Assembly (NCBI GenBank): GCA_041660305.1
Contig: JBAZWO010000001.1
Span: 43,969 to 107,968 of the forward strand
Origin: Patescibacteria group bacterium
GTDB lineage: Bacteria; Patescibacteriota; Patescibacteriia; UBA9570
Direction of reading: 5' to 3'
DNA length: 64,000 nucleotides
Shown here: one piece after another, positions 1-28,557 of the stretch
Layout of the letters: the number at the start of each line of letters is the position of its first letter
Numbering within the stretch: the stretch's first letter is position 1
Position numbers and translations under genes: made by a program
The notes under the pieces: model-generated
The model's database searches: none
Told to the model about the DNA's origin: nothing
Seen by the model: only the letters and a program-made list of their open reading frames with translations

Positions 1-453
1 AATGCTTGTTTCGGCTGGTAATAACTGTTTTATATTATCCAATGCTTCAAGAAATTGTTTATAATTATTAGCTATACGATGTTTGTTGATCACATAACCT
101 TGAGTAATATATTGGCGCAATACTGTACTGGCCCATTGGCGAAAAATAATAGCTTTAGCTGAGTTTGCTCTATAACCAACGGCCAAGATAATATCTAACG
201 AGTAAAATTTTATTGGTTTATCCGAATTTGCAATGTGCAATTTTTGCACATTGCTTTTTTCATTAACTTCACGATTTTTGAAGATATTTTTAATATGTTT
301 AGTAACCACCGAGCGCTCAACATTAAAAATATCAGCAATTTGTGCCTGATTTGCCCAAATGGTATCTTTATCAACATCGCCCCGTAACTGAATAGCCCCG
401 GTTTTGGTTTGATAAATAACCACGTTATTGTTTAACAACTTTTTTTGCTTCAT
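1..453 (-). CDS. RhuM-family protein, N-terminal part (3' end runs off the window start)
   Basis: Not in the ORF track because it is open at the window edge. Reverse translation from ATG at 453 gives MKQKKLLNNNVVIYQTKTGAIQLRGDVDKDTIWANQAQIADIFNVERSVVTKH...YSLDIILAVGYRANS..FRQWA. This is collinear with the full-length RhuM-like ORF at 4880..5926. Confidence 0.6.
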   Translation of the reverse strand, partial: MKQKKLLNNNVVIYQTKTGAIQLRGDVDKDTIWANQAQIADIFNVERSVVTKHIKNIFKNREVNEKSNVQKLHIANSDKPIKFYSLDIILAVGYRANSAKAIIFRQWASTVLRQYITQGYVINKHRIANNYKQFLEALDNIKQLLPAETSI

Positions 454-1333: not shown

Positions 1334-1960
1334 TTATTGTTTATCCGCAAATATCACTAGCCGTTTGGAATAACTTTTGGCAATCGCATTCCAGTCACCT
1401 TCACAGGTAATTAGGTTAAGGTGTGATTTGCCGTCGTCTGAGGTAAACACCTCTGGAGCGTCGGCCTGTGGATCATAACTCCGACTGGAGCGCACCACGA
1501 AGGCGATGCGGACTCCGGCGTCATCTTCAACATAAATTACATCACCAGGTTTTAAAGTGTGTAAATCATCAAATACTGATCCTCGTCCATTTTTTTTCCA
1601 TACCCCGTAATGTCCGGCAATCACCGCGCTACCAGTTTCCCCTGGGCGCTGCCCTAACTGATACCAGACCACATCGTCTTGATTTTTTGGTACATCCATG
1701 GCTCCAGTAGCGGTGAGGCCAACATTTTTTATAGCCGCGTCCACTGTAATCGCTGGAATAATAAGACGTACCGGCTGGCCTGGACGATCTGGAACAGGCT
1801 CAACATTTGTACTATGCTCAACAATAACTGATGGCGCAGTGTCGTTGTGACGTAAGCGTAGTTGAAGACAATAGTACAATACTACTACAGACAAAACTAT
1901 CCCTATGAAGATCAGTAGCACTAGGCTTCGACCATAGATGTGATTAGATGGAGCGTACAC
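1334..1960 (-). CDS. sortase-family transpeptidase
   Basis: N-terminal TM anchor. The catalytic-domain pattern reads RLIIPAITVDAAI...VIAGH...LKPGDVIYV...HLNLITCEG (TLxTC-type Cys motif). The gene lies immediately downstream of a protein with a sorting signal. Confidence 0.8.
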   Translation of the reverse strand: MYAPSNHIYGRSLVLLIFIGIVLSVVVLYYCLQLRLRHNDTAPSVIVEHSTNVEPVPDRPGQPVRLIIPAITVDAAIKNVGLTATGAMDVPKNQDDVVWYQLGQRPGETGSAVIAGHYGVWKKNGRGSVFDDLHTLKPGDVIYVEDDAGVRIAFVVRSSRSYDPQADAPEVFTSDDGKSHLNLITCEGDWNAIAKSYSKRLVIFADKQ

Positions 1961-1963
1961 ACT

Positions 1964-3652
1964 CTATGGCGTGCGTTTTCTTATAGCAACGACCACTAAA
2001 GTTGAAATTAATAGGAAGCTGCTAGCAATGATGAAATTCCAAGGGCTATTTTTTTCAGCCGGATCTAATCCTGTATCTGGAAAATCGGGAATTCGGTGAT
2101 TAATATTGGTGGAGTTAGTGCTATTAGTATTAGTTGTAGTATCGGTGTTAGTATTGGTGTTAGTATTAGTTGTAGTATCGGTGTTTGTATCGGTGTTAGT
2201 ATTAGTTGTAGTATCAGTGTTAGTATTGGTGTTAGTATTGGTGTTAGTATCGGCAGTGCCTTCAGCCACCGTTACTACTGCGAAATCGATAACGGTAAAA
2301 CCATTGGCGCTACCTTCGGCCGTAGCGGTATTGGTAGTTATGCCAGTGAGATCTGTTGTACAAGTATATGTCCAGGTTTCTGAAACATTCAGCGTATCAC
2401 TGCCATTAGTATCACCGGAAACATAAGTTACCGGGCTACACTTATTATCAACCACACTCACATTCGTTAAAGCCACTGTGCCAGGATTAGTGACGGTATA
2501 GGTGTAGGTTACTGGTCCGCCGCCATTAGGAATAGTGAATGTGTCGGGCGTTTTAACAACATGGATTAATGGTGGTGTTATAGGTACACCAACCACCACT
2601 GTAGCATTGGCCGTATCAGTGGTACTAAAACCATTAGCTTCACCTGTCGCCGTTACTGTATTGGTAAGAGTTTTTGCGACAGTTCTGGTACAATTATAGT
2701 TCCAAGTTTCCGTCAAATCAAGAATGTCATCACTATTAGCATCACCGGATACAAAGTCTACAGTATCACATTTATTATCAGTTACCATAACATTATTAAT
2801 GGCGACTGTGCCAATATTTGTTACGGTATAATCGTAGGTCACTGAACCAGATCCATCCGGCAAAGCTAGCGGCGTAGGCACTTTTTCAACGCTAATTAAT
2901 GGCGGAACTAGTGTTTCTGTCGGAGTGGGAGTTGTGGTCGTGGGAGGCACTACACAGGTTGCCCTGGTAATAACGTTGGTGTCTAAGGTCACCGCGCCAT
3001 TGCGCGCTAATACTCTACCTTCTACAGCGGCACCAGTCGTGAGTGTAGCAGACGTTAAAGCCAAAATATTACCTTTGAAAGTGGAGTTGGCTCCTAGAGT
3101 CGCGGAACTGCCAACCTGCCAAAACACGTTACAGGCTTGGGCACCATTAGTGAGAACCACAACGCTAGAACCGCCTGTGATAAGCGTGGATGCTGTCTGA
3201 AAGATAAAGACCGCATCGGGGTTACCTTCAGCATCAAGCGTTAGAGTATTTGTTAATCCAAATGTACCGTTCGCTGAATTATAGATACCGGCGGTTTTTG
3301 TTGTTCCGCCAAGCTCCGTAGACACTGTCGACACCGGGGTTTGTCCAACGGCGTCATTGTAGGCTGTGATTAAATCAGTTTTCGCTTGCACAGCCGTTGT
3401 ATCAGCCACATGTTGCGTCCCATTGAGTGTGCCAGGCGGAAAACCAGTGACCGAACTGCCTGGACTTAAACCCAGATCTCCGGTAATCACGCTCGAACCT
3501 GTATTTGTGACTGTAGAGCCCCCTAAAATAGCAAAATTATCAGTTGAACCAAGATCAACTGTCGTAACGGCTTGAACTTGATTCAATCCAATTAAATTAA
3601 ATATAAAAACAGTAGCTAAAATAGCCACTGACAATTTTTTAAGTACTTTCAT
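1964..3652 (-). CDS. cell-surface protein: ice-binding-like (DUF3494-type) beta-solenoid, two repeated Ig-like modules, TN/TD low-complexity stalk and FPDTG sorting signal
   Basis: Signal peptide, then the DUF3494-like block. This block reads LGSTDNFAILGGSTVTNTG.SVITGDLGLSPGSSVTGFPPG...AVFIFQ..STL...CNVFWQVGSSATLG..S.F.GNILA..S.T...A.V.GR.LA.NGAVTL. It is followed by two copies of VTY.YTVTN.GTVA..NV.V.DNKC..V..VSGD...D..L...ETW.Y.CT. The C-terminus is IPDFPDTG plus a hydrophobic helix plus RKRTP. Confidence 0.75.
   Translation of the reverse strand: MKVLKKLSVAILATVFIFNLIGLNQVQAVTTVDLGSTDNFAILGGSTVTNTGSSVITGDLGLSPGSSVTGFPPGTLNGTQHVADTTAVQAKTDLITAYNDAVGQTPVSTVSTELGGTTKTAGIYNSANGTFGLTNTLTLDAEGNPDAVFIFQTASTLITGGSSVVVLTNGAQACNVFWQVGSSATLGANSTFKGNILALTSATLTTGAAVEGRVLARNGAVTLDTNVITRATCVVPPTTTTPTPTETLVPPLISVEKVPTPLALPDGSGSVTYDYTVTNIGTVAINNVMVTDNKCDTVDFVSGDANSDDILDLTETWNYNCTRTVAKTLTNTVTATGEANGFSTTDTANATVVVGVPITPPLIHVVKTPDTFTIPNGGGPVTYTYTVTNPGTVALTNVSVVDNKCSPVTYVSGDTNGSDTLNVSETWTYTCTTDLTGITTNTATAEGSANGFTVIDFAVVTVAEGTADTNTNTNTNTNTDTTTNTNTDTNTDTTTNTNTNTNTDTTTNTNSTNSTNINHRIPDFPDTGLDPAEKNSPWNFIIASSFLLISTLVVVAIRKRTP
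2115..2255. repeat. imperfect tandem repeat encoding the (T-N/T-D)n stalk
   Basis: Reiterated ggtgttagtatt / agttgtagtatc units. These translate on the minus strand as DTNTNTNTNTNTDTTTNTNTDTNTDTTTNTNTNTNTDTTTN. Confidence 0.8.
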
Positions 3653-4879: not shown

Positions 4880-5926
4880 TTAATTACTCATTTTTTTCTC
4901 TACTTTTTTTTCTAGCAATTTAATATTTTCCAGATAGGCTTTTTCAACGGGAGAGAGCGTTTTAGCTTGAAATTTTTTATATTCATTTTCTGCTTTTTCT
5001 ATGGCTTTTTTATGTGTTATTTTTCCAGCATCAATCAATATCCCTTTGCCGTAATCAGAAAGTAATTTATCTAAAGATGCAATATGATCTGTCATATGCA
5101 TTACTTGCTGATCCATAGCACGCAATTCTGTCAATTCAAAATATGCCGAAACAAGTCTGTTTAACTTTTCCAATTCTTTCGCAGATAAATAATTTTTAGC
5201 AATTCTCACTTCTTCTAACACAGGTAAATCTCCCTCAAAAACCGTCAAACCCATAAATTCTTTATTGCTATCAGCACGGTTGTATATGACTTCCGACGCT
5301 GTTTGTTTATGCGCAGCATAGTGCAATTTGTTTTGCACGATTTTAAAAAACTTAATTGAATGTAGAGATTTTGGATCATAATCCACGCTGGTGGCATAAA
5401 GATCTAAAACTTGTCTATACAACATTTTTTCACTAGAGCGAATATCCCGAATACGAGATAAAAGCTTTTTCCAGTATAAGCCGCCGCCATTGTTTTTCAA
5501 AAATTCATCATTCATGCTGAACCCTTGAATTAAATATTCACGAAGTCTCGCCGTGGCCCATTGGCGAAACTTTGTGCCCTGTATGGATTTCACTCGATAA
5601 CCGACAGAAATAATTGCATCTAGACTATAATGTTTTACTATATTTTCTTGAGTTTTCCCCTGAATTGCTCCATGTTCTGCGGTTCGTCGGAAATCCCGAC
5701 ATACCACTTTTTCATCCAATTCTCTCTCTTTAAAAATATTTTGAATATGTTCAGTGATGGTAGATCTGCCTTTACCGAAAAGTGCCGCCATTTGTGTCTG
5801 CGTAAGCCACACTGTCTCACCCTCAACACGCACCTCAATACCAGGCGCCCCATCCGCACCTTCATAGATAATTATCTCGCCGGAATTATTGTTATTTGTT
5901 GTATTATTTTTATCTTTTTTATTCAT
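4880..5926 (-). CDS. RhuM-family protein (full length)
   Basis: 348 aa. Reads ..VWLTQTQMAALFGKGRSTITEHIQNIFKERELDE..VCRDFR.TA.....K......YSLDAIISVGYRVKS..GT.FRQWATARLREYLIQGF..ND..LKN. Confidence 0.8.
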   Translation of the reverse strand: MNKKDKNNTTNNNNSGEIIIYEGADGAPGIEVRVEGETVWLTQTQMAALFGKGRSTITEHIQNIFKERELDEKVVCRDFRRTAEHGAIQGKTQENIVKHYSLDAIISVGYRVKSIQGTKFRQWATARLREYLIQGFSMNDEFLKNNGGGLYWKKLLSRIRDIRSSEKMLYRQVLDLYATSVDYDPKSLHSIKFFKIVQNKLHYAAHKQTASEVIYNRADSNKEFMGLTVFEGDLPVLEEVRIAKNYLSAKELEKLNRLVSAYFELTELRAMDQQVMHMTDHIASLDKLLSDYGKGILIDAGKITHKKAIEKAENEYKKFQAKTLSPVEKAYLENIKLLEKKVEKKMSN

Positions 5927-5947
5927 ATATTTTTACTTGTCGCAAAT

Positions 5948-6003
5948 ATCTTTGATAGTGATGGTGGTTTTTAGGGTTGTTTTCATATTTTTTAAAATAC
6001 TGT
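5948..6003 (-). repeat. direct repeat B flanking RhuM (encodes the MKTTLKTTITIKDICDK remnant)
   Basis: The minus-strand ATG at 5986 opens a 17-codon ORF that stops at 5933, 6 nt before the RhuM ATG (5926). About 34 of the first 39 nt are identical to copy A. Confidence 0.7.
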
Positions 6004-6292
6004 TTCTTTATTCCCAAATCTTCGTTTTTCGGTAATAATATTCGGTCTTCTTTCAAAATTTCGTAAATTAGCCATTCCAATCAATCCCATTACAAAATTA
6101 TTTTTTGTGTCCTCTATGATCGCATCTGCTATCGCGACATCGTTGCTTATAACATTTAATTTTCCTTTTGGTTTTTCAGTAAGTTTTTCTCTTGTAATTT
6201 TTGCTACGTCTTCATTTTCAATAATAATTTTAAAATAAATTAAGCCGCAGCTTCATTGGTATATTGATGAAAATTTTATTTTGTTTAGACAT
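5992..6292 (-). pseudogene. possible frameshifted small gene (unknown family)
   Basis: ATG at 6292 gives MSKQNKIFINIPMKLRLNLF then a stop. An overlapping frame without a start continues for ~80 codons (..IIIENEDVAKITREKLTEKPKGKLNVISNDVAIADAIIEDTKNNFVMGLIGMANLRNFERR..) to a stop at 5992. Confidence 0.3.
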
Positions 6293-6428
6293 AATCTACC
6301 TAGATAATACCCTAAAAAAGACGTTTCGTCAATCGCTAAATTATTCTGATACCACTGAGTTAGGTGCGCGAAGCTGGCAAAAATTCCTTCCCCCTTTACC
6401 CCCGTGACTCCAGATTTTAAGCATATAT

Positions 6429-7568
6429 TCAAGACAATTTTCCTTTAGAAAAATTTTCAAGATTTTTTGCCAAATCCGTCAAAATGTCCAATAATAAGAC
6501 TACACTATAGACGTCATGTGGTGCAGCCAAAGATCCTACATAGTTATTTTTATAATATAATTTATTTTGTTTTAAAGAAATGTGAACGCCCCTATTATAA
6601 CTAAATAGTTTTTGCTGTAAATAATGTGGTACATTGTCGCTAGTTATTCCTTGAGTGATAAAGCGATCTTGAAAAGTGGTCGGCTTATTTTTATATTCTT
6701 CACGCTCTTGAATGTTGAAATCAGGAAAATTTTTCATATTTTTTAATTCCACATAACATTCTCCCACATTAGCGGCCGTGCTCGGTATAGAAACAGAAAA
6801 GATGCGTGAACTTTTTGTTGTAAAAGAGGCAGTATAATTATATAATACTTTTTTATCATGATATAAACCAGACATCACAAATGAAGAATTAATGATATTA
6901 GCATCAATGAAAAAATTTGAAGCAAATTTTGCAGTAATGCTAAAATCGGTAGTTAAATTAGTTTGCGGCTCACACGCATTCAATTGCTTAAGAATAGGAT
7001 CTATGGATGATTTTATATCTTCATTTACATCATAATTTACCGCCCGGAACATACGTTTTTGTAAATAAAAAGCCAGAGGAATAACAATAGCTGCGGCTAA
7101 ATATCCAAAATTAAAATTACTTAGCAACATTTTCGTTTTAACGGGAAGTAATACAAGAACTCCAATTCCCAAAATCTGTACTAAAAATAGTATATGTGCT
7201 TTTTTAATCTCTTGTTGTACTTTGGATGTTTTAAATTTTTTTTGCGTATCTTCTTGAGCTGGAACAACCACGTGCAGAAACCTTTTTTGAAAAGATATTT
7301 TATCTTGAGCATATAATTTTTGTTCTGGCATTTTGCCTTTTTTATATTTATGCTCAAAAAAAATTTTAACTATAGCGATGATGATAAAAACAATCACTGC
7401 GAAAATAAGCGGCATAAAATAACCTAAATTATTCTCTAGGCTATAAATAGCTGTGTGGCTACTTAAAAATAGAGATAGAGATATAGTTCCTATTACTAAA
7501 ACTAATGCCACAATAATAAAAATAGCCACATATTTATTCATTGGATTTTGAAAACGATTGTCTATCAT
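6429..7568 (-). CDS. hypothetical multi-pass membrane protein
   Basis: 379-aa ORF with four clear hydrophobic helices in the N-terminal half. No recognisable motif. Confidence 0.5.
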   Translation of the reverse strand: MIDNRFQNPMNKYVAIFIIVALVLVIGTISLSLFLSSHTAIYSLENNLGYFMPLIFAVIVFIIIAIVKIFFEHKYKKGKMPEQKLYAQDKISFQKRFLHVVVPAQEDTQKKFKTSKVQQEIKKAHILFLVQILGIGVLVLLPVKTKMLLSNFNFGYLAAAIVIPLAFYLQKRMFRAVNYDVNEDIKSSIDPILKQLNACEPQTNLTTDFSITAKFASNFFIDANIINSSFVMSGLYHDKKVLYNYTASFTTKSSRIFSVSIPSTAANVGECYVELKNMKNFPDFNIQEREEYKNKPTTFQDRFITQGITSDNVPHYLQQKLFSYNRGVHISLKQNKLYYKNNYVGSLAAPHDVYSVVLLLDILTDLAKNLENFSKGKLS

Positions 7569-8071
7569 ATTTTACTTAAATTCATAATTAATGATTTTCC
7601 TTCGTCATACTTACCAATTGATTGTGCTATTAATGGAAACCATAATCTATTCGTCAATAATATCAAACCGAATGTTGGCAATATGAATAAAAACAATCTT
7701 GTTATATCTATTTTTTTCACTTTGATATCTTTATAATCTACTAATCGTATAGCTAATTCAGCTATATATTACAATATTTATTCCAAAAATTCCAATTATG
7801 CTTTTACTGCAGGTTATGAAATATAAAAACCATTATATATTGACGGTTTTGTAAATGGCAGGCATGGTAGCACAGCTTTCGAACTTTCGACTGGAAGAAA
7901 GCGTTGCCTACGCCTGAGTTGGTTATTAAACACGTTAGTGAGTTATGTGCGTTGGTATAGCTAAAAAGCGGTTTAGTAGATAGTTGTATGGATTAAATTT
8001 GACAGAGGCTACCATTCAGCTAAGATTGATCAGCTTTTTTACAATTCACCCTGTTTTTTGAAAGGCAAGCC

Positions 8072-8347
8072 ATGGAATGGCCAATCAAAAGGCTAACTTT
8101 TTCGTTCTATGAAAATTCAGGAACGCCCGATGGTATTGTCGCCTTCGGGACAGTGAAAAAAGTTGAACGAGACAATGTGATTTACTACGCCATACAGGAT
8201 GGTGGTTTGTGGCATCATCCTGAGCTACAGTCTTATGTGGGAACTGTGGTGGGCATAAACCTCAATCTCGAACAACGACGGCTTGAGGTAGTAAGTTGGC
8301 CGCAACAACAATTTCTTCGGGCCTTGGCAGAGGAACTACTCAACTAG
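8072..8347 (+). CDS. hypothetical protein
   Basis: 91-aa ORF in the GC-rich block. No recognisable motif. Confidence 0.4.
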   Translation: MEWPIKRLTFSFYENSGTPDGIVAFGTVKKVERDNVIYYAIQDGGLWHHPELQSYVGTVVGINLNLEQRRLEVVSWPQQQFLRALAEELLN

Positions 8348-8364
8348 ATTTTGATGAGGTGTCC

Positions 8365-8532
8365 ATGGAAGGCTTTGTGCTGCTAGTGATCCTGCTGGTC
8401 ACTGGCTATATCTTGCGCCGTTTCCTCTGGGGAACGGCAAAGGGGTGTTTTTTCCTCTTCGTTTTTTTTCTTTTCTGTATGGCAGCTCTGGGGCTTTTGC
8501 TCCACAACTGTGCCGCCAACTTGGGCCATTAA
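8365..8532 (+). CDS. hypothetical small two-helix membrane protein
   Basis: In-frame ATG at 8365 preceded by tgatGAGGtgtcc. Encodes MEGFVLLVILLVTGYILRRFLWG...FFLFVFFLFCMAALGLLL. Confidence 0.25.
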   Translation: MEGFVLLVILLVTGYILRRFLWGTAKGCFFLFVFFLFCMAALGLLLHNCAANLGH

Positions 8533-8744
8533 TGGCCTGTCGCTCTTGGAGGCCTTAGCTCCGCCCGCCTGAATCCTCTATGTCTACGAGGACACCATTC
8601 AGGCCTTTCCCAGTGTTCATCTTTAAAAATAAAAAGGTGACTAGCGGGATATAAAACAAAGAAGACCCGACGAAGCGCAGACATGTGTCTTCTTCGCGGG
8701 TCTTTGGCCCATCACGGGCGTTGTTCCAGTTCATGGAACCCTCC

Positions 8745-9548
8745 TTATCTTTTTTTGTTCTTCTTGTTTTTTTTGCCAGCTTGATTGCTGGTCACCTTGT
8801 TACGTCTTCCAAAAACGAAAAACCGAAACGACAGTGCTACCATAGTGCTTGGATCGAGCTTGGCCATGGCCGCCACGTCCTGGATCATGTTAAAGCTCTT
8901 GACCGAAAAAACTGACCGAGCAATTTCACCAAGGTCAGGTGTCTCAATCCTGCTCCTCGGATGCTTTAACGTGCAGGACAAAAAAATAGATGCTTGCGGC
9001 TTAGCAATACGACCCGCCTCACGCACCCAACGTCGCCAGTGCTCTGACCAGTGCATAGCGTTGATGCAGAAAACCATATCACCGCAGGAATCAGCCAGAC
9101 CATTCTTTGCTGCATCAGCCACCACAGTTACAACCCGATCAGACAAGTTCAGCTTGTCAGCAATATCTTGCGCTCGCTGCAACATGACAACGCTATGATC
9201 CACGAGCGTGACTCGACCAACTAATCCCCTCGATAACAGCCACAGCTCATACGAAGCAGGACCACAACCAAGTGATACCAGATGAGTAGCTCCCGAAATC
9301 ACACCAGCAGAAAAAATACACTGCCACAATCGCGCCAATGTATCTCTCTGGTGCTGTTCTTCTTCATAGATACCGTAACTGACCGCCACCTTGTTCTGAT
9401 AACCCGACATTTCTGTGTCGGGCTTAGTGGAGTACAAACCCTCACTACGATCGTTGATATCACGCAAGAACTGCTCCCGATTACCTCGTTCGGGAAAATG
9501 AGTCTGCCAGAACTGCACGAAATCTGTCAAAGCTTCTGCTTCGTTCAC
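8745..9548 (-). CDS. class I SAM-dependent methyltransferase
   Basis: Motif I-like LVSLGCGPASYELWLL, then VTLVDHS..ML..A, then DMVFCINAMHW (post-II/III pattern). Lys-rich tail. Confidence 0.7.
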   Translation of the reverse strand: MNEAEALTDFVQFWQTHFPERGNREQFLRDINDRSEGLYSTKPDTEMSGYQNKVAVSYGIYEEEQHQRDTLARLWQCIFSAGVISGATHLVSLGCGPASYELWLLSRGLVGRVTLVDHSVVMLQRAQDIADKLNLSDRVVTVVADAAKNGLADSCGDMVFCINAMHWSEHWRRWVREAGRIAKPQASIFLSCTLKHPRSRIETPDLGEIARSVFSVKSFNMIQDVAAMAKLDPSTMVALSFRFFVFGRRNKVTSNQAGKKNKKNKKR

Positions 9549-9729
9549 GACTGTCTCCTATGACGATAGTTGCATCTCATTACACCAAACTGACTTGCCT
9601 AGTGTTTTCAACACAAAAAAATGAACAAACCTTGAATAAGGTGGTATGAGTTTATTCAAATTTGTTACTCATGTCAACCTTTAAACTTTCATATTTCCCT
9701 TATTTTAGTGGTATTTTTCACTATGCCTC

Positions 9730-9758
9730 TTGACAGATTTTAAAAAATGTATTATGAT
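9730..9758 (+). promoter_or_regulatory. sigma70-type promoter candidate
   Basis: TTGACA (9730-9735), 17-nt spacer, TATGAT (9753-9758). Confidence 0.45.
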
Positions 9759-9764
9759 GTTTTG

Positions 9765-9893
9765 TTATTTAATAAATAACACGTACCTTCCACAAAAAAT
9801 TATGGCCAGGGTCTGCAGCTTCGGCGGCAGATTGAAGAACCCAGTTAGTGAACCACTGGGAGACCACAAGTGTTCGCAGTAATGCGTTTTTTT
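9765..9893 (+). ncRNA. candidate small RNA or structured leader (three hairpins plus U-tract)
   Basis: Hairpin 9812-9831 is TCTGC(a)GC-UUCG-GC(g)GCAGA. Hairpin 9840-9860 is CCCAGT-9nt-ACTGGG. Hairpin 9875-9886 is CGCA-GTAA-TGCG, followed by T7. Confidence 0.3.
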
Positions 9894-10119
9894 ATTGTCT
9901 TCTTCTTGTACCTGAGCCCAATAACCAAACGCATTTTAATTTTCTCCCACAGTAGGCTAACAACTTACTCTATTGTGGGAGACACGGCAGAGAGAAGGTA
10001 AAAAGCCGTAAGGCCAAAACCAACTCACTGATGTGTGCTCAAAGTTTTTTCACCGCCCCATCTTCCAGATGCGGGCACGTCAACAAACCCTCCTCTCGCA
10101 GAGAGGAAAGGAGTATCTC

Positions 10120-10503
10120 ATGATCGCGAAAGTCGTTTTTGTTCTGGAAGTCACCGCTGAGGACGTGGCAAAGGCCGAGGGACGTGACCGCACGCAGGAG
10201 GAAGGGCCATTCCGTACCCAGGCGCCGTATGCGTCGTGGGTCAGAAACGGTCCGGCGTGCCAGGCCATGCAGCGTCTTGGCTTTACTGAGACGAGCTATA
10301 TGCATGGATGGCTTTTCGGAACAACCCCTTATGGGACGAAGCGAAGCTTCGGCGTACCGTTCGACCAGCCCGAGCAGGCTGGAGCGATCGCACTGTCGGA
10401 GAGCTGCTTTTTCCAGCAGGGGGTCAAGGGCGAACGGATCGAGCCGATCGAGGGTGGCCCCCTCACGGCAGAGCGTCCCTCCATCCCGGAGGTGACGTTC
10501 TAG
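10120..10503 (+). CDS. hypothetical protein (GC-rich, foreign codon usage)
   Basis: ATG at 10120 is preceded by GGAAAGGAG. Codon third positions are strongly G/C. The overlapping antisense ORF 10039..10599 lacks an RBS. Confidence 0.45.
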   Translation: MIAKVVFVLEVTAEDVAKAEGRDRTQEEGPFRTQAPYASWVRNGPACQAMQRLGFTETSYMHGWLFGTTPYGTKRSFGVPFDQPEQAGAIALSESCFFQQGVKGERIEPIEGGPLTAERPSIPEVTF

Positions 10504-10906
10504 GCGCGATCGCCCCCTGGCTAGCAGACCTAGGGTAAAAACGTCTGCTCGGTGGCTCTTGTCACCCACCGCAAGCTCACATTTCGTGGGCAGCGACACA
10601 ACGTTCTGGGGTTCGGATCAATGGACTGCTCGCAAGAGACAGCATCCCGAACCCCCACCTACCAAAAACGACAATAAAAAAACTATTATCGTTTTTGACA
10701 GAGTGGTTCACAGTAGATTTCCTAGTAATCATATGCTATATACACAAGCTGTATTGATTACTGCTTGTCAGATACTAGGGGGAATATACTCATCTTTCTT
10801 CATGAGCACTAACCTTCTCCTGACAAGTGGTAATGAGTATGGCTGTACATGAAACTTGATAGAAGAGAACAAAAATCCGCTTGTGTGGCAAATTTTTATT
10901 TTAATC

Positions 10907-11377
10907 TTAATACCATTCAGCTACTCCCCCATGATGTGAACAGGTGCCACTGCGGCTTTGGCTAAAACTATAGGTCCCATCTTTGCATTGAGCCGAAGCA
11001 CCAGATGGAACCGAATCTGCTTCATACGGACTAGGTACTGTGTTTCCATACACATTTTGATAGGTGCCATTAGGAGCATAAGTGCTAGTTGAGGTAGTGG
11101 TCGTTTTTTCAGTGGTATTTGTAGATGTAGGTGCAGAAACAGTGGAGTTGCTATTGCCGTTATTTACATTCGCGTTTACTGATTCATTAGTATTCTTATT
11201 TTCGTTACTAATATTAACGTTAGCAGTGCTGCTGCTATTAGTATTAACATTAGCAACGTTTGTGACAGCAGTATTGGTGTATGAAGTAGGTGTGGTAGTA
11301 GTGCAGCCAATAATGGCTAGACTTAGCACTAACAATACAAAAATCGAACGAAATTTATGTAGCCATTGGTTAAACAT
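10907..11377 (-). CDS. lipoprotein with C-terminal DUF3761-like domain
   Basis: Lipobox LAIIGC, an Asn/Thr-rich linker, and the C-terminus CKDGTYSFSQSRSGTCSHHGGVAEWY. Confidence 0.65.
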   Translation of the reverse strand: MFNQWLHKFRSIFVLLVLSLAIIGCTTTTPTSYTNTAVTNVANVNTNSSSTANVNISNENKNTNESVNANVNNGNSNSTVSAPTSTNTTEKTTTTSTSTYAPNGTYQNVYGNTVPSPYEADSVPSGASAQCKDGTYSFSQSRSGTCSHHGGVAEWY

Positions 11378-11552
11378 ATTTTTTGTGATGGTTGGTTAGA
11401 TAATAATTAAAATATAAAAGAGACCTCCTGTATATACTTTGAATTTAATCAATTAATGTCTATTTCTTATGTTTTCTTTTTTATCCTACTTTTTTTATTT
11501 CGATTTGTCTTTTTTCTTAAGCTATCCCCTTAATAAAATTTGCTTGTTTTGA

Positions 11553-12551
11553 TTAAAAAGGAATATCTTCAACGTTTATTTCGTTATATTTTTCATTATT
11601 TTTAGAATGTGTCCATTCAGCATTTGGATCTACATGATATTTATTTAAATAATTTTTTTTAATATTCATTGCTTTCATTTGACCAAAATATTTTTCAGGA
11701 CACGATAGCAATGTTAATTCAATAATAGCCATATTATTCATGGTTATCATTTTATATATACTTGGACTACCCACAGGAATAGTACTTTTATCCGTATGTC
11801 TAATATCTTCTATTTTACTGTTAAATTTTTTTGCTAATAGGACACTTTCGTTTATCATAACACTTAATTCACTAGCCCTGTTCTTCATTGTCCATTGTTT
11901 TGCTATTAAAGAACAAAGCTGTTCTGCGTAAGCTCTAGTTTTTTTCTGTTTTTCTTCACTACTGAATAATCGTTGGACAAGATCGGCTGATATACGAGAT
12001 AATATTTTATAGTCACTAGTAGTTTCATTAATATTATAAAATTCAATCAATTTATTTTTTAAAATATCGTCATTTATTAATGGTAATAAGGATTTAATAT
12101 TAGATGTTTCTTTTTTTGTGATTTTGTCTTCATAAATAAAAAAAATGCTACTTTCGTCAGAAAAAATATCATTAAATCTCTTAACAATTTTCTCCCTTTG
12201 ATTTTCAACGCTAAAAATAATTAATATTTCTATTAAATCAAATATTTTATAATCATTAATAGCTACTGAGGGATTAATTTCTAACGTTTTACAATTAATA
12301 AATTCTGTTAAATCGTAACCAAGTTCTGCAAGTGAAAAATTTTTTAAATTATCATCGTTAAAATAATATTTATTTGCAGTTGCCGGATAATCCAATACAA
12401 TTATAAAATTTTCTAAAGTTTTTGTTTCAACTATATATCTAATCTCGTATAATAATCTATTTCTCAATTCGTCAGTGATAAAAACATTTGGATTATTTTC
12501 ACCAATACTTCTTATAGATTTATTTGAATACCTTTTAGAAAAACTCTGCAT
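11553..12551 (-). CDS. hypothetical protein with an AbiJ-NTD4-like N-terminus (possible abortive-infection-type protein)
   Basis: The start is reset to ATG 12551 because the ORF-track N-terminus is a translation of tRNA-Trp. MQSFSKRY......I......FITDELRNRLLYEI resembles the FS.R...LRNrLWN signature, from memory. Extremely A/T-rich. Confidence 0.5.
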   Translation of the reverse strand: MQSFSKRYSNKSIRSIGENNPNVFITDELRNRLLYEIRYIVETKTLENFIIVLDYPATANKYYFNDDNLKNFSLAELGYDLTEFINCKTLEINPSVAINDYKIFDLIEILIIFSVENQREKIVKRFNDIFSDESSIFFIYEDKITKKETSNIKSLLPLINDDILKNKLIEFYNINETTSDYKILSRISADLVQRLFSSEEKQKKTRAYAEQLCSLIAKQWTMKNRASELSVMINESVLLAKKFNSKIEDIRHTDKSTIPVGSPSIYKMITMNNMAIIELTLLSCPEKYFGQMKAMNIKKNYLNKYHVDPNAEWTHSKNNEKYNEINVEDIPF

Positions 12552-12553
12552 AC

Positions 12554-12629
12554 TGGCAGGGGCGACAGGACTCGAACCTGCAACACCTCGTTTTGGAGAC
12601 GAGTGCTCTACCAATTGAACTACGCCCCT
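12554..12629 (-). tRNA. tRNA-Trp (CCA anticodon)
   Basis: The reverse complement is AGGGGCGTAGTTCAATTGGTAGAGCACTCGTCTCCAAAACGAGGTGTTGCAGGTTCGAGTCCTGTCGCCCCTGCCA. It folds as a cloverleaf with anticodon loop CTCCAAA, a GTTCGAGTC T-loop and an encoded CCA. Confidence 0.9.
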
Positions 12630-12683
12630 AGAGCCTCAATAATATAACTGTTATTTTTGACAATGTAAAGAGAAAAACAAATA

Positions 12684-12730
12684 CCCCTTCCCTCTTTATA
12701 GGAGGGAAGGGGTTAGGGGTTGGAAGGTAG
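12684..12730. repeat. GC-rich polypyrimidine/polypurine hairpin element (locus 1)
   Basis: CCCCTTCCCTC-tttata-GGAGGGAAGGGG followed by ttaggggttggaaggtag. Confidence 0.8.
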
Positions 12731-12741
12731 AATATGGTTGT

Positions 12742-12903
12742 TTATTTAATCTCTTTATGCGGCGTATGTTTGCCACACTGTGGGCAGTGTTTTTTCAATT
12801 CTAACTTGCCAGCTTGATGAAGTTTTTTCTTATTTTTTTGTGTATAATAATTGGTAGTTTTACACTCTTTGCATTCTAATTTGGTTAACCGCTCTTGAGA
12901 CAT
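12742..12903 (-). CDS. rpmG: 50S ribosomal protein L33
   Basis: Absent from the ORF track (53 aa). Reads [53 protein letters not shown]. It has the CxxC...CxxC zinc ribbon and a typical L33 sequence. Confidence 0.85.
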
Positions 12904-12939
12904 ATTTTTTTAGTATAAATAAAGTAATTAGTAGTTAAT

Positions 12940-13014
12940 TGGAGCCACCTCAGGGATTTGAACCCAGGACCAACAGTTTACAAAACTGCTGCTCTACCAC
13001 TGAGCTAAGGTGGC
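12940..13014 (-). tRNA. tRNA-Thr (UGU anticodon)
   Basis: The reverse complement is GCCACCTTAGCTCAGTGGTAGAGCAGCAGTTTTGTAAACTGTTGGTCCTGGGTTCAAATCCCTGAGGTGGCTCCA. The acceptor and D stems are perfect and the anticodon loop is TTTGTAA. There is one U-U mismatch in the T stem. Confidence 0.85.
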
Positions 13015-13953
13015 TTAAGCCGCCACTATCGTAGAAGTTTTTTCTGATTGTGTCAACTCGGCAAACGCAATGTGCCAAAAATGGAACATAAACGTTTGAT
13101 AAACCCCTTTAATAGCTAGTAATAACACCATTAATATTAATGCGGCCAATATGCCAATAATAATCATTACTGCCCAAGCCGAGGCACTGTAAGTAATAAA
13201 ACCTAAAATAGCTGTAGGAATAATAATAATTAATATGCCTAAAATAGTAGCTAAACCAACTACTAAACCAGCTAACAATGTCATAAGATAACACAACACA
13301 TTATCACTTAACCGCGTTTTTAATAACTGCCAAGCGGATTTTATGCTTTCAATAATGCCTTGTTGTTGAAACACTAAAAATTGCCGAGCCTGCATTAAGA
13401 TAATTTGCACAGCAATACCAAATGGAATAAGTAATATTACTAATACAATTACAGCTGGAATCACTACAATTAAACCAACTATGGTAATGCCTAATAATAT
13501 TAACGGCACGGCAATAATCATAGCACCCAATACGATACTGCCTTTTATTACTATATGTAGGCCTAATACTTTCCAAAAATTAGCTAAACCAAATTTAAAT
13601 AATTCTCCAAATTTTAACGTTTGATTGGTTCTAGCTAACTGCGCACCACGAAACATGCCACCAACCGCAATATTATGTAACACTACACGAACAATAATTA
13701 AAGCAATCACTAATAAACCAAGAATAATTAACATCCACCACAAATTAGAGGTAATGTAATCCAGCGCATAATTAAATTCACTATTTACATCGTTATTCCA
13801 TAATTGCTCATAATTTGTACCTGAACCAATATTACCAGGAATGTTTACATTACAACCACTACTACTACCAGCCACAAACAACCCTAATAGCCACATTATT
13901 TTAGTGCGTTTAGTAGCCGCTAACGCTTGTTTTAATATGTTTGTGTATTCCAT
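13015..13953 (-). CDS. hypothetical polytopic membrane protein
   Basis: 312-aa ORF with about 6 hydrophobic helices. Its stop abuts tRNA-Thr. Confidence 0.5.
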   Translation of the reverse strand: MEYTNILKQALAATKRTKIMWLLGLFVAGSSSGCNVNIPGNIGSGTNYEQLWNNDVNSEFNYALDYITSNLWWMLIILGLLVIALIIVRVVLHNIAVGGMFRGAQLARTNQTLKFGELFKFGLANFWKVLGLHIVIKGSIVLGAMIIAVPLILLGITIVGLIVVIPAVIVLVILLIPFGIAVQIILMQARQFLVFQQQGIIESIKSAWQLLKTRLSDNVLCYLMTLLAGLVVGLATILGILIIIIPTAILGFITYSASAWAVMIIIGILAALILMVLLLAIKGVYQTFMFHFWHIAFAELTQSEKTSTIVAA

Positions 13954-15058
13954 AATTAAAAAAAATTATATTATTTCTTAAATAACTCTCCACGAACCCG
14001 TTTAAATTTCCATCTAATACTTTTTGTGGCTCGGTTTCTTCGTAATCAGTGCGGTGATCTTTTACTAATTTGTATGGATGCAATACATACGACCGAATTT
14101 GATTACCCCATTCGGCCGAAGTGTACTCGCCGCGTAATTTTAATTTTTCTACCTGTTCAGTTTCTAACTGTTTTTTATGTAGCTTGGCTTTTAAAATCTT
14201 CATGGCTGAAGCTTTGTTTTGGTGTTGCGAGCGCTCGTTTTGACAAGTTACCACAATACCGGTAGCTAAATGAGTAATACGCACCGCGGAATCGGTAGTA
14301 TTTACGCCTTGACCACCATGGCCACCGGCGCGATACACATCTATGCGAATATCTTCATCTTTAATAGTAACCGGACTAGCTTCGCCCAAATCGGGCAACA
14401 CTTCAATTAAGGCAAATGAGGTTTGGCGTAAGGCATCGGCGTTAAACGGTGATTGCCGCACCAATCTGTGTACACCATGCTCGCTTTTTAAATAACCATA
14501 AGCGTAACGGCCAGCCACTTCTAACATGGCCGATTTAATACCGGCTTCATTACCACGCGAAACATGTACTGTGCGCACCGAAAAATTTCGTTGTTCACAA
14601 TACCGTAATATCATGCGTAATAACATTTCTGCCCAATCCTGCGCATCTACTCCCCCGGCGCCAGCGTGAATGCCAACTAACGCCGAAACTGTATCGTATT
14701 TACCATTTAATAAAATATGAAACTCTAATTCATTAAATTGACGCTGGGCTTGAGTAAATTTTTCGGTAATTTCGGCGGCAAAGCTAGCATCTTGTTCAGC
14801 GGATGTTTCAGTAGCTAATTCTAATAGCGTAGTTAGTTCTTCTTGTAATTTGTGCCAAATATCTAATTCTTGTTGTAAATCCTTTACCTCTTTACTTACT
14901 GTCTGCGCATGTGGTGGATCCTGCCAAAATTCTGGTAATGTCATTTCCTGTTCCAAGGCCGCTAACCGCGCCCGCATACCGGTAATATTTAGCTGTTGTG
15001 CCACCACGGTCATACGTTCTAACAACGTTTTAGCAGATTGAACAATATCGTGCATCAT
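13910..15058 (-). CDS. prfB: peptide chain release factor 2
   Basis: Carries the SPF tripeptide (RQSPFNA) and the GGQ motif (GGHGGQGVNTTDSAVRITH..TGIVV.CQNERSQHQNK). The reading frame is uninterrupted, with no programmed frameshift. Confidence 0.9.
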   Translation of the reverse strand: MMHDIVQSAKTLLERMTVVAQQLNITGMRARLAALEQEMTLPEFWQDPPHAQTVSKEVKDLQQELDIWHKLQEELTTLLELATETSAEQDASFAAEITEKFTQAQRQFNELEFHILLNGKYDTVSALVGIHAGAGGVDAQDWAEMLLRMILRYCEQRNFSVRTVHVSRGNEAGIKSAMLEVAGRYAYGYLKSEHGVHRLVRQSPFNADALRQTSFALIEVLPDLGEASPVTIKDEDIRIDVYRAGGHGGQGVNTTDSAVRITHLATGIVVTCQNERSQHQNKASAMKILKAKLHKKQLETEQVEKLKLRGEYTSAEWGNQIRSYVLHPYKLVKDHRTDYEETEPQKVLDGNLNGFVESYLRNNIIFFNYGIHKHIKTSVSGY

Positions 15059-28208: not shown

Positions 28209-28441
28209 TCATGCGCCGGCGGACGCTTTTCTCTCCTTCCTTCCGCCACTTCCCTATTTGGTTCAGTTAATAGCTGGAACAAAGAGGCAAGAATTTTTTA
28301 TTTTTTCCTTCAAAATGAATAAAAACAAAAAGACCTTCGACCAATTTGTGGTGTATAAACCACGGCCAAAAGCCTTTTCTAGATGAATCATAGCACAATT
28401 TTATTTGACGTCAAGAGCTATATCTATATATACTAACCCTG

Positions 28442-28526
28442 GCTGTATAGGAGTGTCCCGAGTACTCGGGACTGAGAAAACATCCTAACAACTTGATCTG
28501 GGTAATGCCAGCGCAGGGAATATAGC
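28442..28526 (+). promoter_or_regulatory. TPP (THI-box) riboswitch aptamer
   Basis: P1 pairs gctgtat with atatagc. The conserved CTGAGA and ..TTGATCTGGGTAATGCCAGCGcAGGGA elements are present. It lies upstream of the thiamine ABC transporter. Confidence 0.85.
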
Positions 28527-28557
28527 TTAATGGCTTTTTAAATAAACCGTTGGCTAA

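What the first reader, a model, noticed from the sequence alone, without database searches (positions are those of the whole stretch)
7860..10700. About 2.8 kb of GC-rich foreign DNA embedded in the AT-rich chromosome, carrying a methyltransferase and three orphan ORFs
Composition jumps abruptly. For example, line 10381-10440 counts 37/60 G+C, while the gene 1.5 kb further on has 8/60 at 12001-12060.

The block holds four ORFs:
- a 91-aa ORF
- a 56-aa two-helix membrane peptide
- a convergent class I SAM-methyltransferase with a Lys-rich tail
- a 128-aa ORF with a strong GGAAAGGAG RBS and G/C-ending codons

It also carries consensus sigma70-like promoters. None of the small proteins resembles anything I recognise. 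No integrase, transposase or flanking direct repeat is visible, so how the block arrived is unexplained. If the organism is an episymbiont, transfer from a GC-rich host is an attractive source. Within this window, this is the best place for a small uncharacterised accessory system.
Basis: partly seen in the sequence, partly recalled or inferred. Interest (0 to 1): 0.65.

Follow-up and report, generated by a model that had tools for sequence, protein, structure and literature searches.

The report
Small mosaic foreign-DNA islet in Patescibacteria
A 2.8 kb GC-rich stretch in an AT-rich Patescibacteria chromosome is real, correctly assembled, horizontally acquired DNA made of about three unrelated gene modules, which is an ordinary kind of small genomic islet and not a new system.

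Summary
Window 7860-10700 is 48.2% GC against 37.0% for the rest, holds the six most deviant 1 kb tetranucleotide windows of the 64 kb, and its four ORFs use codons less typically than all 41 background ORFs. It is not a mis-join: four other assemblies, including two contigs from an independent run (SRR6484324), are 100% identical across both boundaries. The block is a mosaic of three self-contained transcription units. (1) ORF91 plus a 55-aa two-helix peptide (46-50% GC). (2) A class I SAM methyltransferase (48% GC). (3) ORF127 (61% GC) with a highly structured leader. The methyltransferase belongs to a tiny family (11 hits in 5.8 billion proteins). The two members with a source name are Patescibacteria, and all nine other contigs carrying it are 44-56% GC. 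So it most likely came from a moderate-GC Patescibacterium, not a GC-rich host. In its closest relative (76% nucleotide identity) homology covers only the methyltransferase unit, and no neighbour is shared in any locus, so there is no four-gene system. ORF91 and ORF127 are true ORFans. No integrase, transposase, terminal repeat, phage or plasmid match, or Rfam RNA was found. Islands of this kind are already documented as common in Patescibacteria. Interest is low.

The parts
7858..10700 (.). Compositionally foreign islet as a whole (48.2% GC against 37.0% background)
   Evidence: GC profiles. Tetranucleotide z = 4-6. Codon-usage z = -3.7 to -7.2. Identical in 4 other assemblies, including a second run.
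7999..8026 (+). Promoter-like site P1 (TTGACA-16-TAAGAT) in front of ORF91-ORF55
   Evidence: 10 of 12 consensus matches. Function is inferred.
8072..8347 (+). ORF91, a 91-aa ORFan (46% GC)
   Evidence: The only hit in 5.8 billion proteins is itself. No match in Pfam, NCBIfam, PHROGs or PADLOC. AF2 pLDDT 56, no fold match.
8365..8532 (+). ORF55, a 55-aa peptide with two hydrophobic helices (50% GC, GC3 0.63), 17 nt after the ORF91 stop
   Evidence: hydropathy peaks at residues 1-19 and 25-47. No family match.
8661..8705 (.). Long GC-rich hairpin between the convergent units. On the minus strand it is followed by a T-run, making it the intrinsic terminator of the methyltransferase.
   Evidence: Fold of 8530-8750, z = -4.3. 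Sliding z = -4.4 and -5.3 on the two strands. Conserved in L013.
8707..8719 (-). Small hairpin GCCC-GTGAT-GGGC just 3' of the methyltransferase stop. It is shared with L013 and with Kerfeldbacteria L004, with a compensatory stem change.
   Evidence: Present in only 3 of 9 family loci examined.
8745..9548 (-). Class I SAM-dependent methyltransferase, 267 aa, with a Lys/Arg-rich C-terminal tail (48% GC)
   Evidence: Pfam Methyltransf_11, E = 7.9e-13. Family alignment A1 has invariant VSLGCGP.SYEL and N.MHWS. 11 hits in 5.8 billion proteins.
9649..9677 (-). Promoter-like site P2 (TTGACA-17-TAAACT) for the methyltransferase. The -35 box and the ~100-nt 5'UTR are conserved in L013.
   Evidence: The L013 alignment reaches window 9659, and TTGACA is readable in the first bases of L013.
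9600..9780 (.). AT-rich (~26-31% GC) divergent promoter spacer that separates the 48% GC and 59% GC parts
9730..9758 (+). Promoter-like site P3 (TTGACA-17-TATGAT, 11 of 12 matches) for the ORF127 unit
9895..10119 (+). Highly structured leader upstream of ORF127, with several long hairpins including one next to the RBS
   Evidence: Fold z = -4.6, 0 of 200 shuffles as good. Fold of 9764-10125 gives z = -4.4. No Rfam family.
10120..10503 (+). ORF127, a 127-aa ORFan (61% GC, GC3 0.71) with RBS GGAAAGGAG
   Evidence: GC3 > GC1 > GC2, and no excess RNA structure in its body, so it is probably coding. The only database hit is itself. The exhaustive HMMER hits are repeat-summation artefacts.
10504..10697 (+). 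Structured 3' region of the ORF127 unit, ending in an intrinsic terminator at 10663-10697
   Evidence: Fold z = -5.0. Inverted repeat I21, 14 nt, 93% complementary.

Best explanation
The segment is a genuine, stably carried mosaic of horizontally acquired DNA in the chromosome of a ~37% GC Patescibacteria bacterium.

It is made of about three independent, self-contained transcription units, each with its own sigma70-like promoter:
1. ORF91 plus the two-helix peptide ORF55.
2. A class I SAM-dependent methyltransferase with a basic tail. It runs from its promoter through a 5'UTR and the CDS to two 3' hairpins.
3. ORF127, with a long structured leader and its own terminator.

Origin of the methyltransferase unit (inferred): another Patescibacterium of moderate GC (about 45-55%), probably Kerfeldbacteria-like, and not a GC-rich host.

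Origin of the ORF127 unit (inferred): a different, GC-richer, unidentified source.

Route of arrival (inferred, not shown): uptake of DNA followed by illegitimate or short-homology recombination into an already variable, accessory-gene-rich stretch downstream of tRNA-Trp. No integrase, transposase, terminal repeat or phage signature remains.

Function: the methyltransferase is most like small-molecule O/N-methyltransferases. It is not a DNA methyltransferase, and its substrate is unknown. The conserved Lys/Arg tail hints at a nucleic-acid or membrane partner. The other ORFs have no assignable function, and the genes do not act as one system.
For: Shown:
- Composition, k-mer and codon-usage outlier.
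- Two compositional halves.
- Both boundaries are reproduced at 100% identity in NCBI, ENA and Logan assemblies. An independent run, SRR6484324, gives two contigs that cover window 9198-14916 and 5837-8888.
- The methyltransferase family is tiny. The two members that carry a source name are Patescibacteria.
- All nine other contigs carrying it are 44-56% GC, and the genes checked are 50-52% GC, matching their hosts.
- The closest relative, L013 (75% aa, 76% nt identity), is homologous only over window 8653-9659. That span is the promoter, 5'UTR, CDS and hairpins.
- The 3' GTGAT hairpin is shared with Kerfeldbacteria L004.
- No neighbour is conserved in any methyltransferase locus.
- ORF91 and ORF127 have no homologue.
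- There are no mobility genes within about 8 kb, and no tRNA-derived or boundary repeats.
- The neighbourhood itself is accessory and mosaic. It holds three RhuM copies. The left-flank gene p379 is 94% identical to Kerfeldbacteria proteins, while the housekeeping neighbours have no relatives at 90% or above. The p332 gene is ultra-AT-rich.

Literature: more than 100 genomic islands were found in 125 Patescibacteria MAGs, most detected transfers were within the phylum, and competence is one proposed route (PMC12455944).
Against: - No empty site could be shown. The only GTDB relative of the flanking DUF7544 gene is 39% identical, and its contig ends at tRNA-Trp. The metagenome scan returned only distant prfB loci of 58% identity or less, with no shared neighbours.
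- The donor is inferred from composition and from 11 family members, not from a phylogeny.
- The closest methyltransferase relative sits on an unclassified 1.25 kb contig.
- The mechanism of insertion is an argument from the absence of signatures.
- In SRR6484324 the two contigs do not overlap, and window 8889-9197 (inside the methyltransferase gene) is unassembled there.
- The datasets apart from SRR6484324 may derive from the same sample.
Confidence: 0.7

Rival explanations
1. The whole block was acquired from a GC-rich host or neighbour organism.
For: ORF127 and its flanks are 59-61% GC with GC3 of 0.71. That is well above every methyltransferase-family contig except two at 56%. ORF127 has no homologue, so a GC-rich donor cannot be excluded for that roughly 0.9 kb module.
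Against: The methyltransferase half is 48% GC. The two family members with a source name are Patescibacteria, and all other family contigs are 44-56% GC. The block is compositionally split by an AT-rich spacer. No protein in the block has a credible hit to a GC-rich taxon. The Streptomyces plasmid hits to the methyltransferase are 31-36% identical over the Rossmann core only. The adhesin hits to ORF127 are repeat-summation artefacts, with a best single domain of 14 bits.
Confidence: 0.12
2. The four ORFs form one uncharacterised accessory or defence system, for example a methyltransferase-associated one.
For: The ORFs are tightly packed, each with its own promoter. PADLOC mad2 (a MADS methyltransferase) matches the methyltransferase at E = 2.4e-10. 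A small two-helix peptide next to an ORFan could be toxin-like.
Against: The mad2 match covers only the generic methyltransferase core (profile positions 280-449 of 492), and no other MADS component is present. None of nine other methyltransferase loci carries a relative of ORF91, ORF55 or ORF127. The closest relative diverges right after the methyltransferase terminator. The modules differ in GC by 13 points. The methyltransferase lacks DNA-methyltransferase motifs.
Confidence: 0.05
3. The junctions are an assembly chimera.
For: The composition switches abruptly at both ends, and the source is a metagenome-assembled genome.
Against: An NCBI MAG contig, an ENA megahit contig and a Logan contig are 100% identical across the whole block. 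Two contigs from a different run, SRR6484324, each cross one boundary at 100% identity. Cluster records show the block proteins under accessions from two NCBI MAGs and on a 491,640-bp contig.
Confidence: 0.02
4. The block is the decayed remnant of a prophage or of an integrative or mobilisable element that inserted next to tRNA-Trp.
For: It lies 1.9 kb from the 3' end of tRNA-Trp in a stretch full of accessory genes: RhuM copies, ORFans and an exchanged p379 gene. One methyltransferase homologue (L006) sits among Rad52 and many small ORFs, which looks phage-like. In a distant relative the same tRNA pair brackets a 4.9 kb copper-resistance insert.
Against: There is no integrase, no tRNA-derived direct repeat and no boundary repeat. 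There are no PHROG matches of note. IMG/VR, INPHARED and PLSDB give no match for any block protein or for the DNA.
Confidence: 0.12
5. The GC-rich DNA is native, and is GC-rich because it encodes structured RNA or is under unusual selection.
For: The ORF127 leader (z = -4.6), its 3' region (z = -5.0) and the convergent intergenic region (z = -4.3) fold far better than shuffled sequence.
Against: No Rfam family matches, even at E <= 5; the best hits are 19-22 bits against gathering scores of 60-143. The ORF bodies show coding-type GC1/2/3 patterns and no excess structure. The excess structure is confined to UTRs and terminators. The methyltransferase is clearly a protein gene with homologues.
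Confidence: 0.05

Closest known systems
Small genomic islands or islets in Patescibacteria/CPR genomes (Gios et al. 2025, mSystems, PMC12455944)
   Same: It has atypical composition relative to the host genome, carries accessory or ORFan cargo including methyltransferases, and most likely has a donor within the phylum. It sits in a variable region near tRNA genes.
   Different: It is only 2.8 kb, has no integrase or repeats, and is a mosaic of about three separately sourced single-gene modules rather than one island.
Class I SAM-dependent small-molecule methyltransferases of the Methyltransf_11/25 type (closest solved: PDB 3bus, 3dlc, 6uv6 D-glucose O-methyltransferase, MitM 8zc8)
   Same: The Rossmann core has the GxGxG SAM-binding motif (VSLGCGPASYEL). 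Profile-to-PDB E-values are 8e-9 to 8e-6 over residues ~83-198.
   Different: The ~85-residue N-terminal region (FW..FFPE motif), the C-terminal third and the Lys/Arg-rich tail are specific to this family. It scores far below every NCBIfam equivalog cutoff; for BioC it gets 38.6 bits against 185. The substrate is unknown.
Orphan DNA methyltransferases and restriction-modification remnants on islands
   Same: It is a lone methyltransferase on foreign DNA.
   Different: It has no (D/N/S)PP(Y/F/W) or PCQ/ENV catalytic motifs, no DNA-methyltransferase Pfam family, and no restriction gene nearby.

Membership tests
Class I SAM-dependent methyltransferase (Pfam Methyltransf_11/25) | Pfam score above the gathering threshold | tested here: met
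   Methyltransf_11 scores 49.3 bits against 21.2. Methyltransf_25 scores 46.0 against 27.
Class I SAM-dependent methyltransferase (Pfam Methyltransf_11/25) | Motif I glycine-rich SAM-binding loop (hh[DE]hGxGxG-like) | tested here: met
   LVSLGCGPASYE is invariant across all 10 aligned family members.
DNA methyltransferase (N6A/N4C or C5) or orphan R-M methylase | Catalytic motif IV (D/N/S)PP(Y/F/W), or PCQ plus ENV | tested here: not met
   None of these motifs is present in the 267-aa sequence. No DNA-methylase Pfam family is hit.
BioC / UbiE / MenG / TehB equivalogs (NCBIfam) | Score at or above the curated equivalog cutoff | tested here: not met
   The best is BioC TIGR02072 at 38.6 bits against a cutoff of 184.95. 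All others are lower.
MADS defence system (PADLOC mad2) | A full-length mad2 match together with the other mad genes | tested here: not met
   37.9 bits over profile positions 280-449 of 492 only. No other PADLOC hit among the neighbouring ORFs.
Classical tRNA-associated genomic island or integrative element | Atypical composition | tested here: met
Classical tRNA-associated genomic island or integrative element | An integrase or recombinase gene | tested here: not met
   No such Pfam family in any ORF from 718 to about 19.5 kb.
Classical tRNA-associated genomic island or integrative element | A direct repeat derived from the tRNA 3' end, or flanking direct or inverted repeats | tested here: not met
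   The tRNA-Trp 3' 22-mer occurs once, even allowing up to 3 mismatches. No exact repeat of 8 nt or more is shared by the two boundary zones. The only candidate inverted repeat (9886-9904 and 10665-10683) is A/T-rich, and its right arm overlaps the 10663-10697 terminator.
Known structured RNA families (Rfam 15) | A covariance-model score at the gathering threshold | tested here: not met
   There are no hits in the block at gathering score. At E <= 5 the only hits are RT-11 at 19.3 bits against 143.5, and OrzO-P at 22 bits against 60, which lies outside the block.
Cadherin-like / Big_9 adhesin repeat (for ORF127) | A significant match of a single repeat unit | tested here: not met
   The best single-domain score is 14.3 bits, with an independent E-value of about 3.5e3. 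The whole-protein E-values of 1e-11 to 1e-3 arise from summing 5-13 near-identical repeats.
Prophage or phage-derived cargo | Homologues in viral collections or in PHROGs | tested here: not met
   No IMG/VR relatives for the methyltransferase family, ORF127 or ORF91. No INPHARED DNA match. The PHROG hits all have E >= 0.02.

The most novel reading that the evidence does not exclude
The ORF127 module (9730-10697) is DNA captured from a GC-rich host or partner organism. Its ~350-nt, unusually well-folded leader (z about -4.5) and structured 3' region would then be a new cis-regulatory RNA controlling an ORFan. That would make it a rare traceable host-to-episymbiont transfer in Patescibacteria.
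Probability: 0.08. Interest if true: 0.45.

Novelty: new member of a known kind. Interest (0 to 1): 0.2.

Why it matters
It adds one well-verified example of piecemeal horizontal acquisition into a streamlined Patescibacteria genome. The evidence points to an intra-phylum donor for the one gene that can be traced. It also flags a very small, uncharacterised methyltransferase family with a conserved basic tail, whose named members are all Patescibacteria. Neither point changes current understanding, because genomic islands and intra-phylum transfer are already documented as common in this group. The main practical value is negative. The region is not an assembly artefact, not a hidden RNA gene and not a new multi-gene system, so it need not be prioritised.

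Tried and rejected
1. Hidden structured RNA gene as the cause of the high GC. Rfam gave nothing at gathering score, and nothing credible at E <= 5. The excess folding is limited to UTRs and terminators.

2. ORF127 as a fragment of a GC-rich adhesin gene. The exhaustive HMMER search hit giant cadherin/Big_9 proteins at E = 1e-11. No single repeat scores above 14 bits, and a different repeat family matches a different part of the query. This was rejected as a repeat-summation artefact.

3. A conserved small protein 'ORF59' (8555-8734, minus strand) downstream of the methyltransferase, with a strong RBS. It has no start codon in L013 and only 10 codons in L004. What is conserved is a hairpin, not a protein.

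4. The GTGAT-loop hairpin as a family-wide RNA motif. It is present in only 3 of 9 loci.

5. Empty-site test. The GTDB scan with the DUF7544 flank gene gave one relative at 39% identity, whose contig ends at tRNA-Trp. The metagenome scan with prfB gave only distant, non-syntenic loci. Inferring gene order from NCBI locus tags failed because only p379 has close relatives.

6. tRNA-Trp integration. No att-like repeat was found.

7. A terminal inverted repeat around the ORF127 module (9886-9904 and 10665-10683). It is A/T-rich, its right arm overlaps the 10663-10697 terminator, and no copy occurs elsewhere. It was judged a chance match.

8. Structure-based annotation. The single-sequence AF2 models were poor (pLDDT 35 and 56). 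Foldseek against the PDB gave no hit with E <= 0.001.

9. Integron cassette with an attC site. This was considered by eye only. The R''/R' core sites are not apparent around the 3' hairpin, and it was not formally tested.


Full report
**1. Observation**

The window averages 37.5% GC, with an SD of 4.8% for 500-nt windows. Between about 7858 and 10700 the GC rises to 45-63%.

- The block is 48.2% GC and the rest of the window is 37.0%.
- At 50-nt resolution the left edge jumps from 0.20-0.28 to 0.46 at 7850. The right edge falls from 0.56-0.62 to 0.34 at 10650.
- Strand-symmetric tetranucleotide distance to the rest of the window puts the six most deviant 1 kb windows of the whole 64 kb inside the block, with z = 4.3 to 6.2.
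- The four ORFs exist as described: ORF91 at 8072-8347 (+), a 55-aa peptide with two hydrophobic segments at 8365-8532 (+), a convergent 267-aa methyltransferase at 8745-9548 (-) with 10 K/R in its last 20 residues, and ORF127 at 10120-10503 (+) with GGAAAGGAG 6 nt before the ATG.
- Their GC3 is 0.45-0.71, against 0.30 +/- 0.056 for 41 background ORFs. Their synonymous-codon log-likelihood under the background usage (z = -3.7 to -7.2) is lower than that of every background ORF.

The block is not uniform: 7860-9560 is 47.6% GC and 9991-10660 is 58.7% GC, and an AT-rich spacer at 9600-9780 separates them.

**2. Not an assembly artefact**

- The methyltransferase protein is encoded on an NCBI MAG contig (GCA_041664685.1, 27 kb), an ENA megahit contig and a Logan contig of SRR18595301. 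All three are 100% identical to the window over 12-14.6 kb that span the whole block.
- A different run, SRR6484324, gives two Logan contigs that match window 9198-14916 and 5837-8888 at 100% identity. Each boundary is therefore crossed independently.
- Cluster records list the block proteins under accessions from two NCBI MAGs and on a 491,640-bp contig.
- Caveats: the two SRR6484324 contigs leave 8889-9197 unassembled, and some of the datasets may come from one sample.

**3. Not a hidden RNA gene**

- Rfam finds only two tRNAs and a TPP riboswitch in the window.
- A permissive scan of 7600-11000 gives only two sub-threshold hits: RT-11 at 19 bits against a gathering score of 143.5, and OrzO-P at 22 bits against 60.
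- A sliding z-score scan shows that the bodies of ORF127 and the methyltransferase fold no better than shuffles.
- Excess structure is confined to three places: the ORF127 leader (9895-10125, z = -4.6), its 3' region with a terminator at 10663-10697 (z = -5.0), and the convergent intergenic region (z = -4.3).
- ORF127 shows GC3 > GC1 > GC2 (0.71, 0.63, 0.49), as expected for a real coding frame from a GC-rich source. The antisense 186-codon ORF does not.

**4. Anatomy**

Three transcription units can be read from the sequence. The promoters and terminators are consensus matches, so function is inferred.

1. P1 (TTGACA-16-TAAGAT, 7999-8026), then ORF91, then ORF55.
2. P2 on the minus strand (TTGACA-17-TAAACT, 9677-9649), then a ~100-nt 5'UTR, then the methyltransferase. 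This is followed by a small GCCC-GTGAT-GGGC hairpin (8707-8719) and a long hairpin plus T-run (8661-8705).
3. P3 (TTGACA-17-TATGAT, 9730-9758, 11 of 12 matches), then a ~350-nt leader, then ORF127, then the terminator.

**5. The methyltransferase**

- It is a class I SAM enzyme: Methyltransf_11 at E = 7.9e-13, with the invariant VSLGCGP.SYEL motif.
- It lacks DNA-methyltransferase motifs.
- It scores far below every NCBIfam equivalog cutoff; BioC gives 38.6 bits against 185.
- It matches PADLOC mad2 only over the generic core.
- Its family profile matches small-molecule O/N-methyltransferase structures (3bus, 3dlc, 6uv6, MitM) only over the Rossmann core.
- The family is tiny, with 11 proteins at E <= 1e-3 among 5.8 billion. 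It has a specific N-terminal region and usually a Lys/Arg-rich tail.
- The two family members that carry a source name are Patescibacteria: the query's own cluster and a Kerfeldbacteria protein.
- I obtained DNA for nine other loci. All are 44-56% GC, and the genes checked are 50-52% GC, matching their hosts. The window's 37% GC genome is the compositional odd one out for this family.
- The closest relative, L013 (75% aa, 76% nt identity, 47.5% GC), aligns only to window 8653-9659. That is the methyltransferase unit from promoter region to terminator, and the sequence is unrelated beyond it.
- The 3' GTGAT hairpin is shared with L013 and with a 47% GC Kerfeldbacteria locus (L004), with a compensatory stem change. 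It is absent from the other six loci.
- No methyltransferase locus has a neighbour resembling ORF91, ORF55 or ORF127.
- L005 and L099 show that in another lineage the gene is stably syntenic, between toxin-antitoxin genes and relA/spoT.

**6. The ORFans**

- ORF91 and ORF127 find only themselves in the 5.8-billion-protein search.
- They find nothing in Pfam, NCBIfam, PHROGs or PADLOC, nothing in IMG/VR and nothing on plasmids.
- The exhaustive HMMER search with ORF127 returned giant cadherin/Big_9 adhesins at E down to 1e-11. The best single repeat scores 14.3 bits, with an independent E-value of about 3,500. The totals are sums over 5-13 near-identical repeats, and an unrelated repeat protein matches a different query segment. 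I treat these hits as artefacts.
- The single-sequence AF2 models were poor (pLDDT 35 and 56), and the Foldseek search was empty.

**7. How it arrived**

- No integrase or transposase lies between 718 and about 19.5 kb.
- There is no copy of the tRNA-Trp 3' end, even with 3 mismatches.
- No repeat of 8 nt or more is shared by the two boundary zones.
- No block sequence recurs in the window.
- There is no phage or plasmid DNA match.
- The block sits 1.9 kb from tRNA-Trp in a stretch that is itself accessory and mosaic. It holds three RhuM-like copies at 28-432, 974-1237 and 4883-5926, and an ultra-AT-rich ORFan, p332 (26% GC, tetranucleotide z = 4.1).
- The left-flank gene p379 is 94% identical to proteins of Kerfeldbacteria MAGs, while prfB, DUF7544, p672, p332 and RhuM have no relatives at 90% or above.
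- Those p379-bearing genomes contributed no methyltransferase, ORF91 or ORF127 homologue to the protein database. This is indirect evidence that the block is not widely shared.
- In a distant relative, the same tRNA-Thr/tRNA-Trp pair brackets a 4.9 kb copper-resistance insert.
- My inference is piecemeal insertion of short DNA segments by uptake and illegitimate recombination into a recombination-tolerant accessory region. This fits published data that Patescibacteria carry many islands, mostly exchange genes within the phylum, and widely encode competence functions (PMC12455944). The mechanism is inferred, not shown.

**8. What could not be done**

A true empty-site comparison was not possible. 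The GTDB and metagenome scans found no close relative of the locus, and the contig look-ups were exhausted before the p379 relatives were discovered.

**9. Verdict**

The finding is real and correctly described. Its interpretation needs three corrections:
- It is a mosaic, not one insert.
- Its traceable gene points to a moderate-GC Patescibacteria donor, not a GC-rich host.
- There is no evidence for a coherent four-gene system.

It is a new example of a known kind of feature, and the interest is low (0.2). The least ordinary element is the strongly structured leader of the ORF127 module, which cannot be evaluated without homologues.

Noticed in passing
window 6429-7568 (-): The left-flank gene p379 (30% GC, membrane ORFan, named DUF3137-like by UniRef) is 94% identical to proteins from three Candidatus Kerfeldbacteria MAG entries (OGY86400.1, OGY86657.1, OGY88543.1) and to a protein seen on 7 other contigs. 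The adjacent housekeeping genes (prfB, DUF7544, p672) have no relatives at 90% or above. The gene therefore looks recently exchanged. The relatives end in SSQPTIFGVK, whereas the window copy ends in SKGKLS.
   Followed up: partly
window 28-432, 974-1237, 4883-5926 (all -); repeats 274-453/1079-1258 and 460-490/1264-1294: There are three RhuM-family copies: one full-length, one N-terminal fragment and one partial copy near the window start. The two fragments at the window start are preceded by near-identical repeats. These repeats encode 'SQTTIFGVK*' (460-490) and 'SQTTIFVVK*' (1264-1294), which resemble the C-terminus of the p379 relatives. This suggests a duplicated or recombined p379-RhuM module.
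   Followed up: partly
window 11553-12551 (-): A 332-aa ORFan directly downstream of tRNA-Trp is extremely AT-rich (26% GC, GC3 0.18, tetranucleotide z = 4.1), so it is anomalous in the opposite direction to the block. The 353-aa ORF listed for it is an artefact that reads through the tRNA-Trp gene.
   Followed up: no
window 8707-8719 and 8661-8705; L013 ~955-1025; L004 8815-8905: Immediately 3' of the methyltransferase stop lies a conserved AAGGAGG-ATG box, a small hairpin with a constant GTGAT loop (stem GCCC/GGGC here, GGCC/GGCC in L004, GGCCC/GGGCC in L013) and a terminator. This arrangement is conserved even where the proteins are only 43% identical, but it occurs in only 3 of 9 family loci.
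   Followed up: yes
window 10747-10844 (+): A ~100-nt imperfect hairpin with 25-nt arms (76% complementary) and inner stems lies just outside the right boundary, between the ORF127 terminator and the 3' end of the DUF3761 gene. The 10725-10874 window gives z = -5.3. No copy occurs elsewhere in the window.
   Followed up: partly
L007 5986-11061: In the only GTDB relative of the DUF7544 flank gene (39% identity), tRNA-Thr and tRNA-Trp are separated by a 4.9 kb insert. It encodes heavy-metal-associated proteins and a copper-type P-type ATPase, where the window has rpmG. This tRNA neighbourhood is therefore a variable site in the lineage.
   Followed up: partly
L009 and L012 (run SRR6484324), corresponding to window 8889-9197: In the independent run the assembly breaks inside the methyltransferase gene, and about 310 bp is missing between the two contigs. 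This could reflect low coverage or strain-level variation in that gene.
   Followed up: no
window 1334-3652 (-), tandem repeats 2101-2268: A class F sortase gene lies next to a 562-aa ice-binding-like/DUF7507 surface protein. That protein has a 12-nt tandem repeat array encoding a (T/N/D)-rich stalk. At 43-50% GC this is the second most GC-rich stretch of the window.
   Followed up: no
window 28439-28536 (+): A TPP riboswitch (Rfam RF00059) scores 63.6 bits against a gathering score of 54.3.
   Followed up: no
L005 7273-11598 and L099 153-3603: Two methyltransferase orthologues (40-42% identical to the window's) share synteny in another lineage. A toxin-antitoxin pair lies upstream, a 141-142-aa ORF (hydrophobic N-terminus in the sequence read) lies downstream, and then comes relA/spoT. 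There the gene is vertically stable inside a toxin-antitoxin-rich region.
   Followed up: partly
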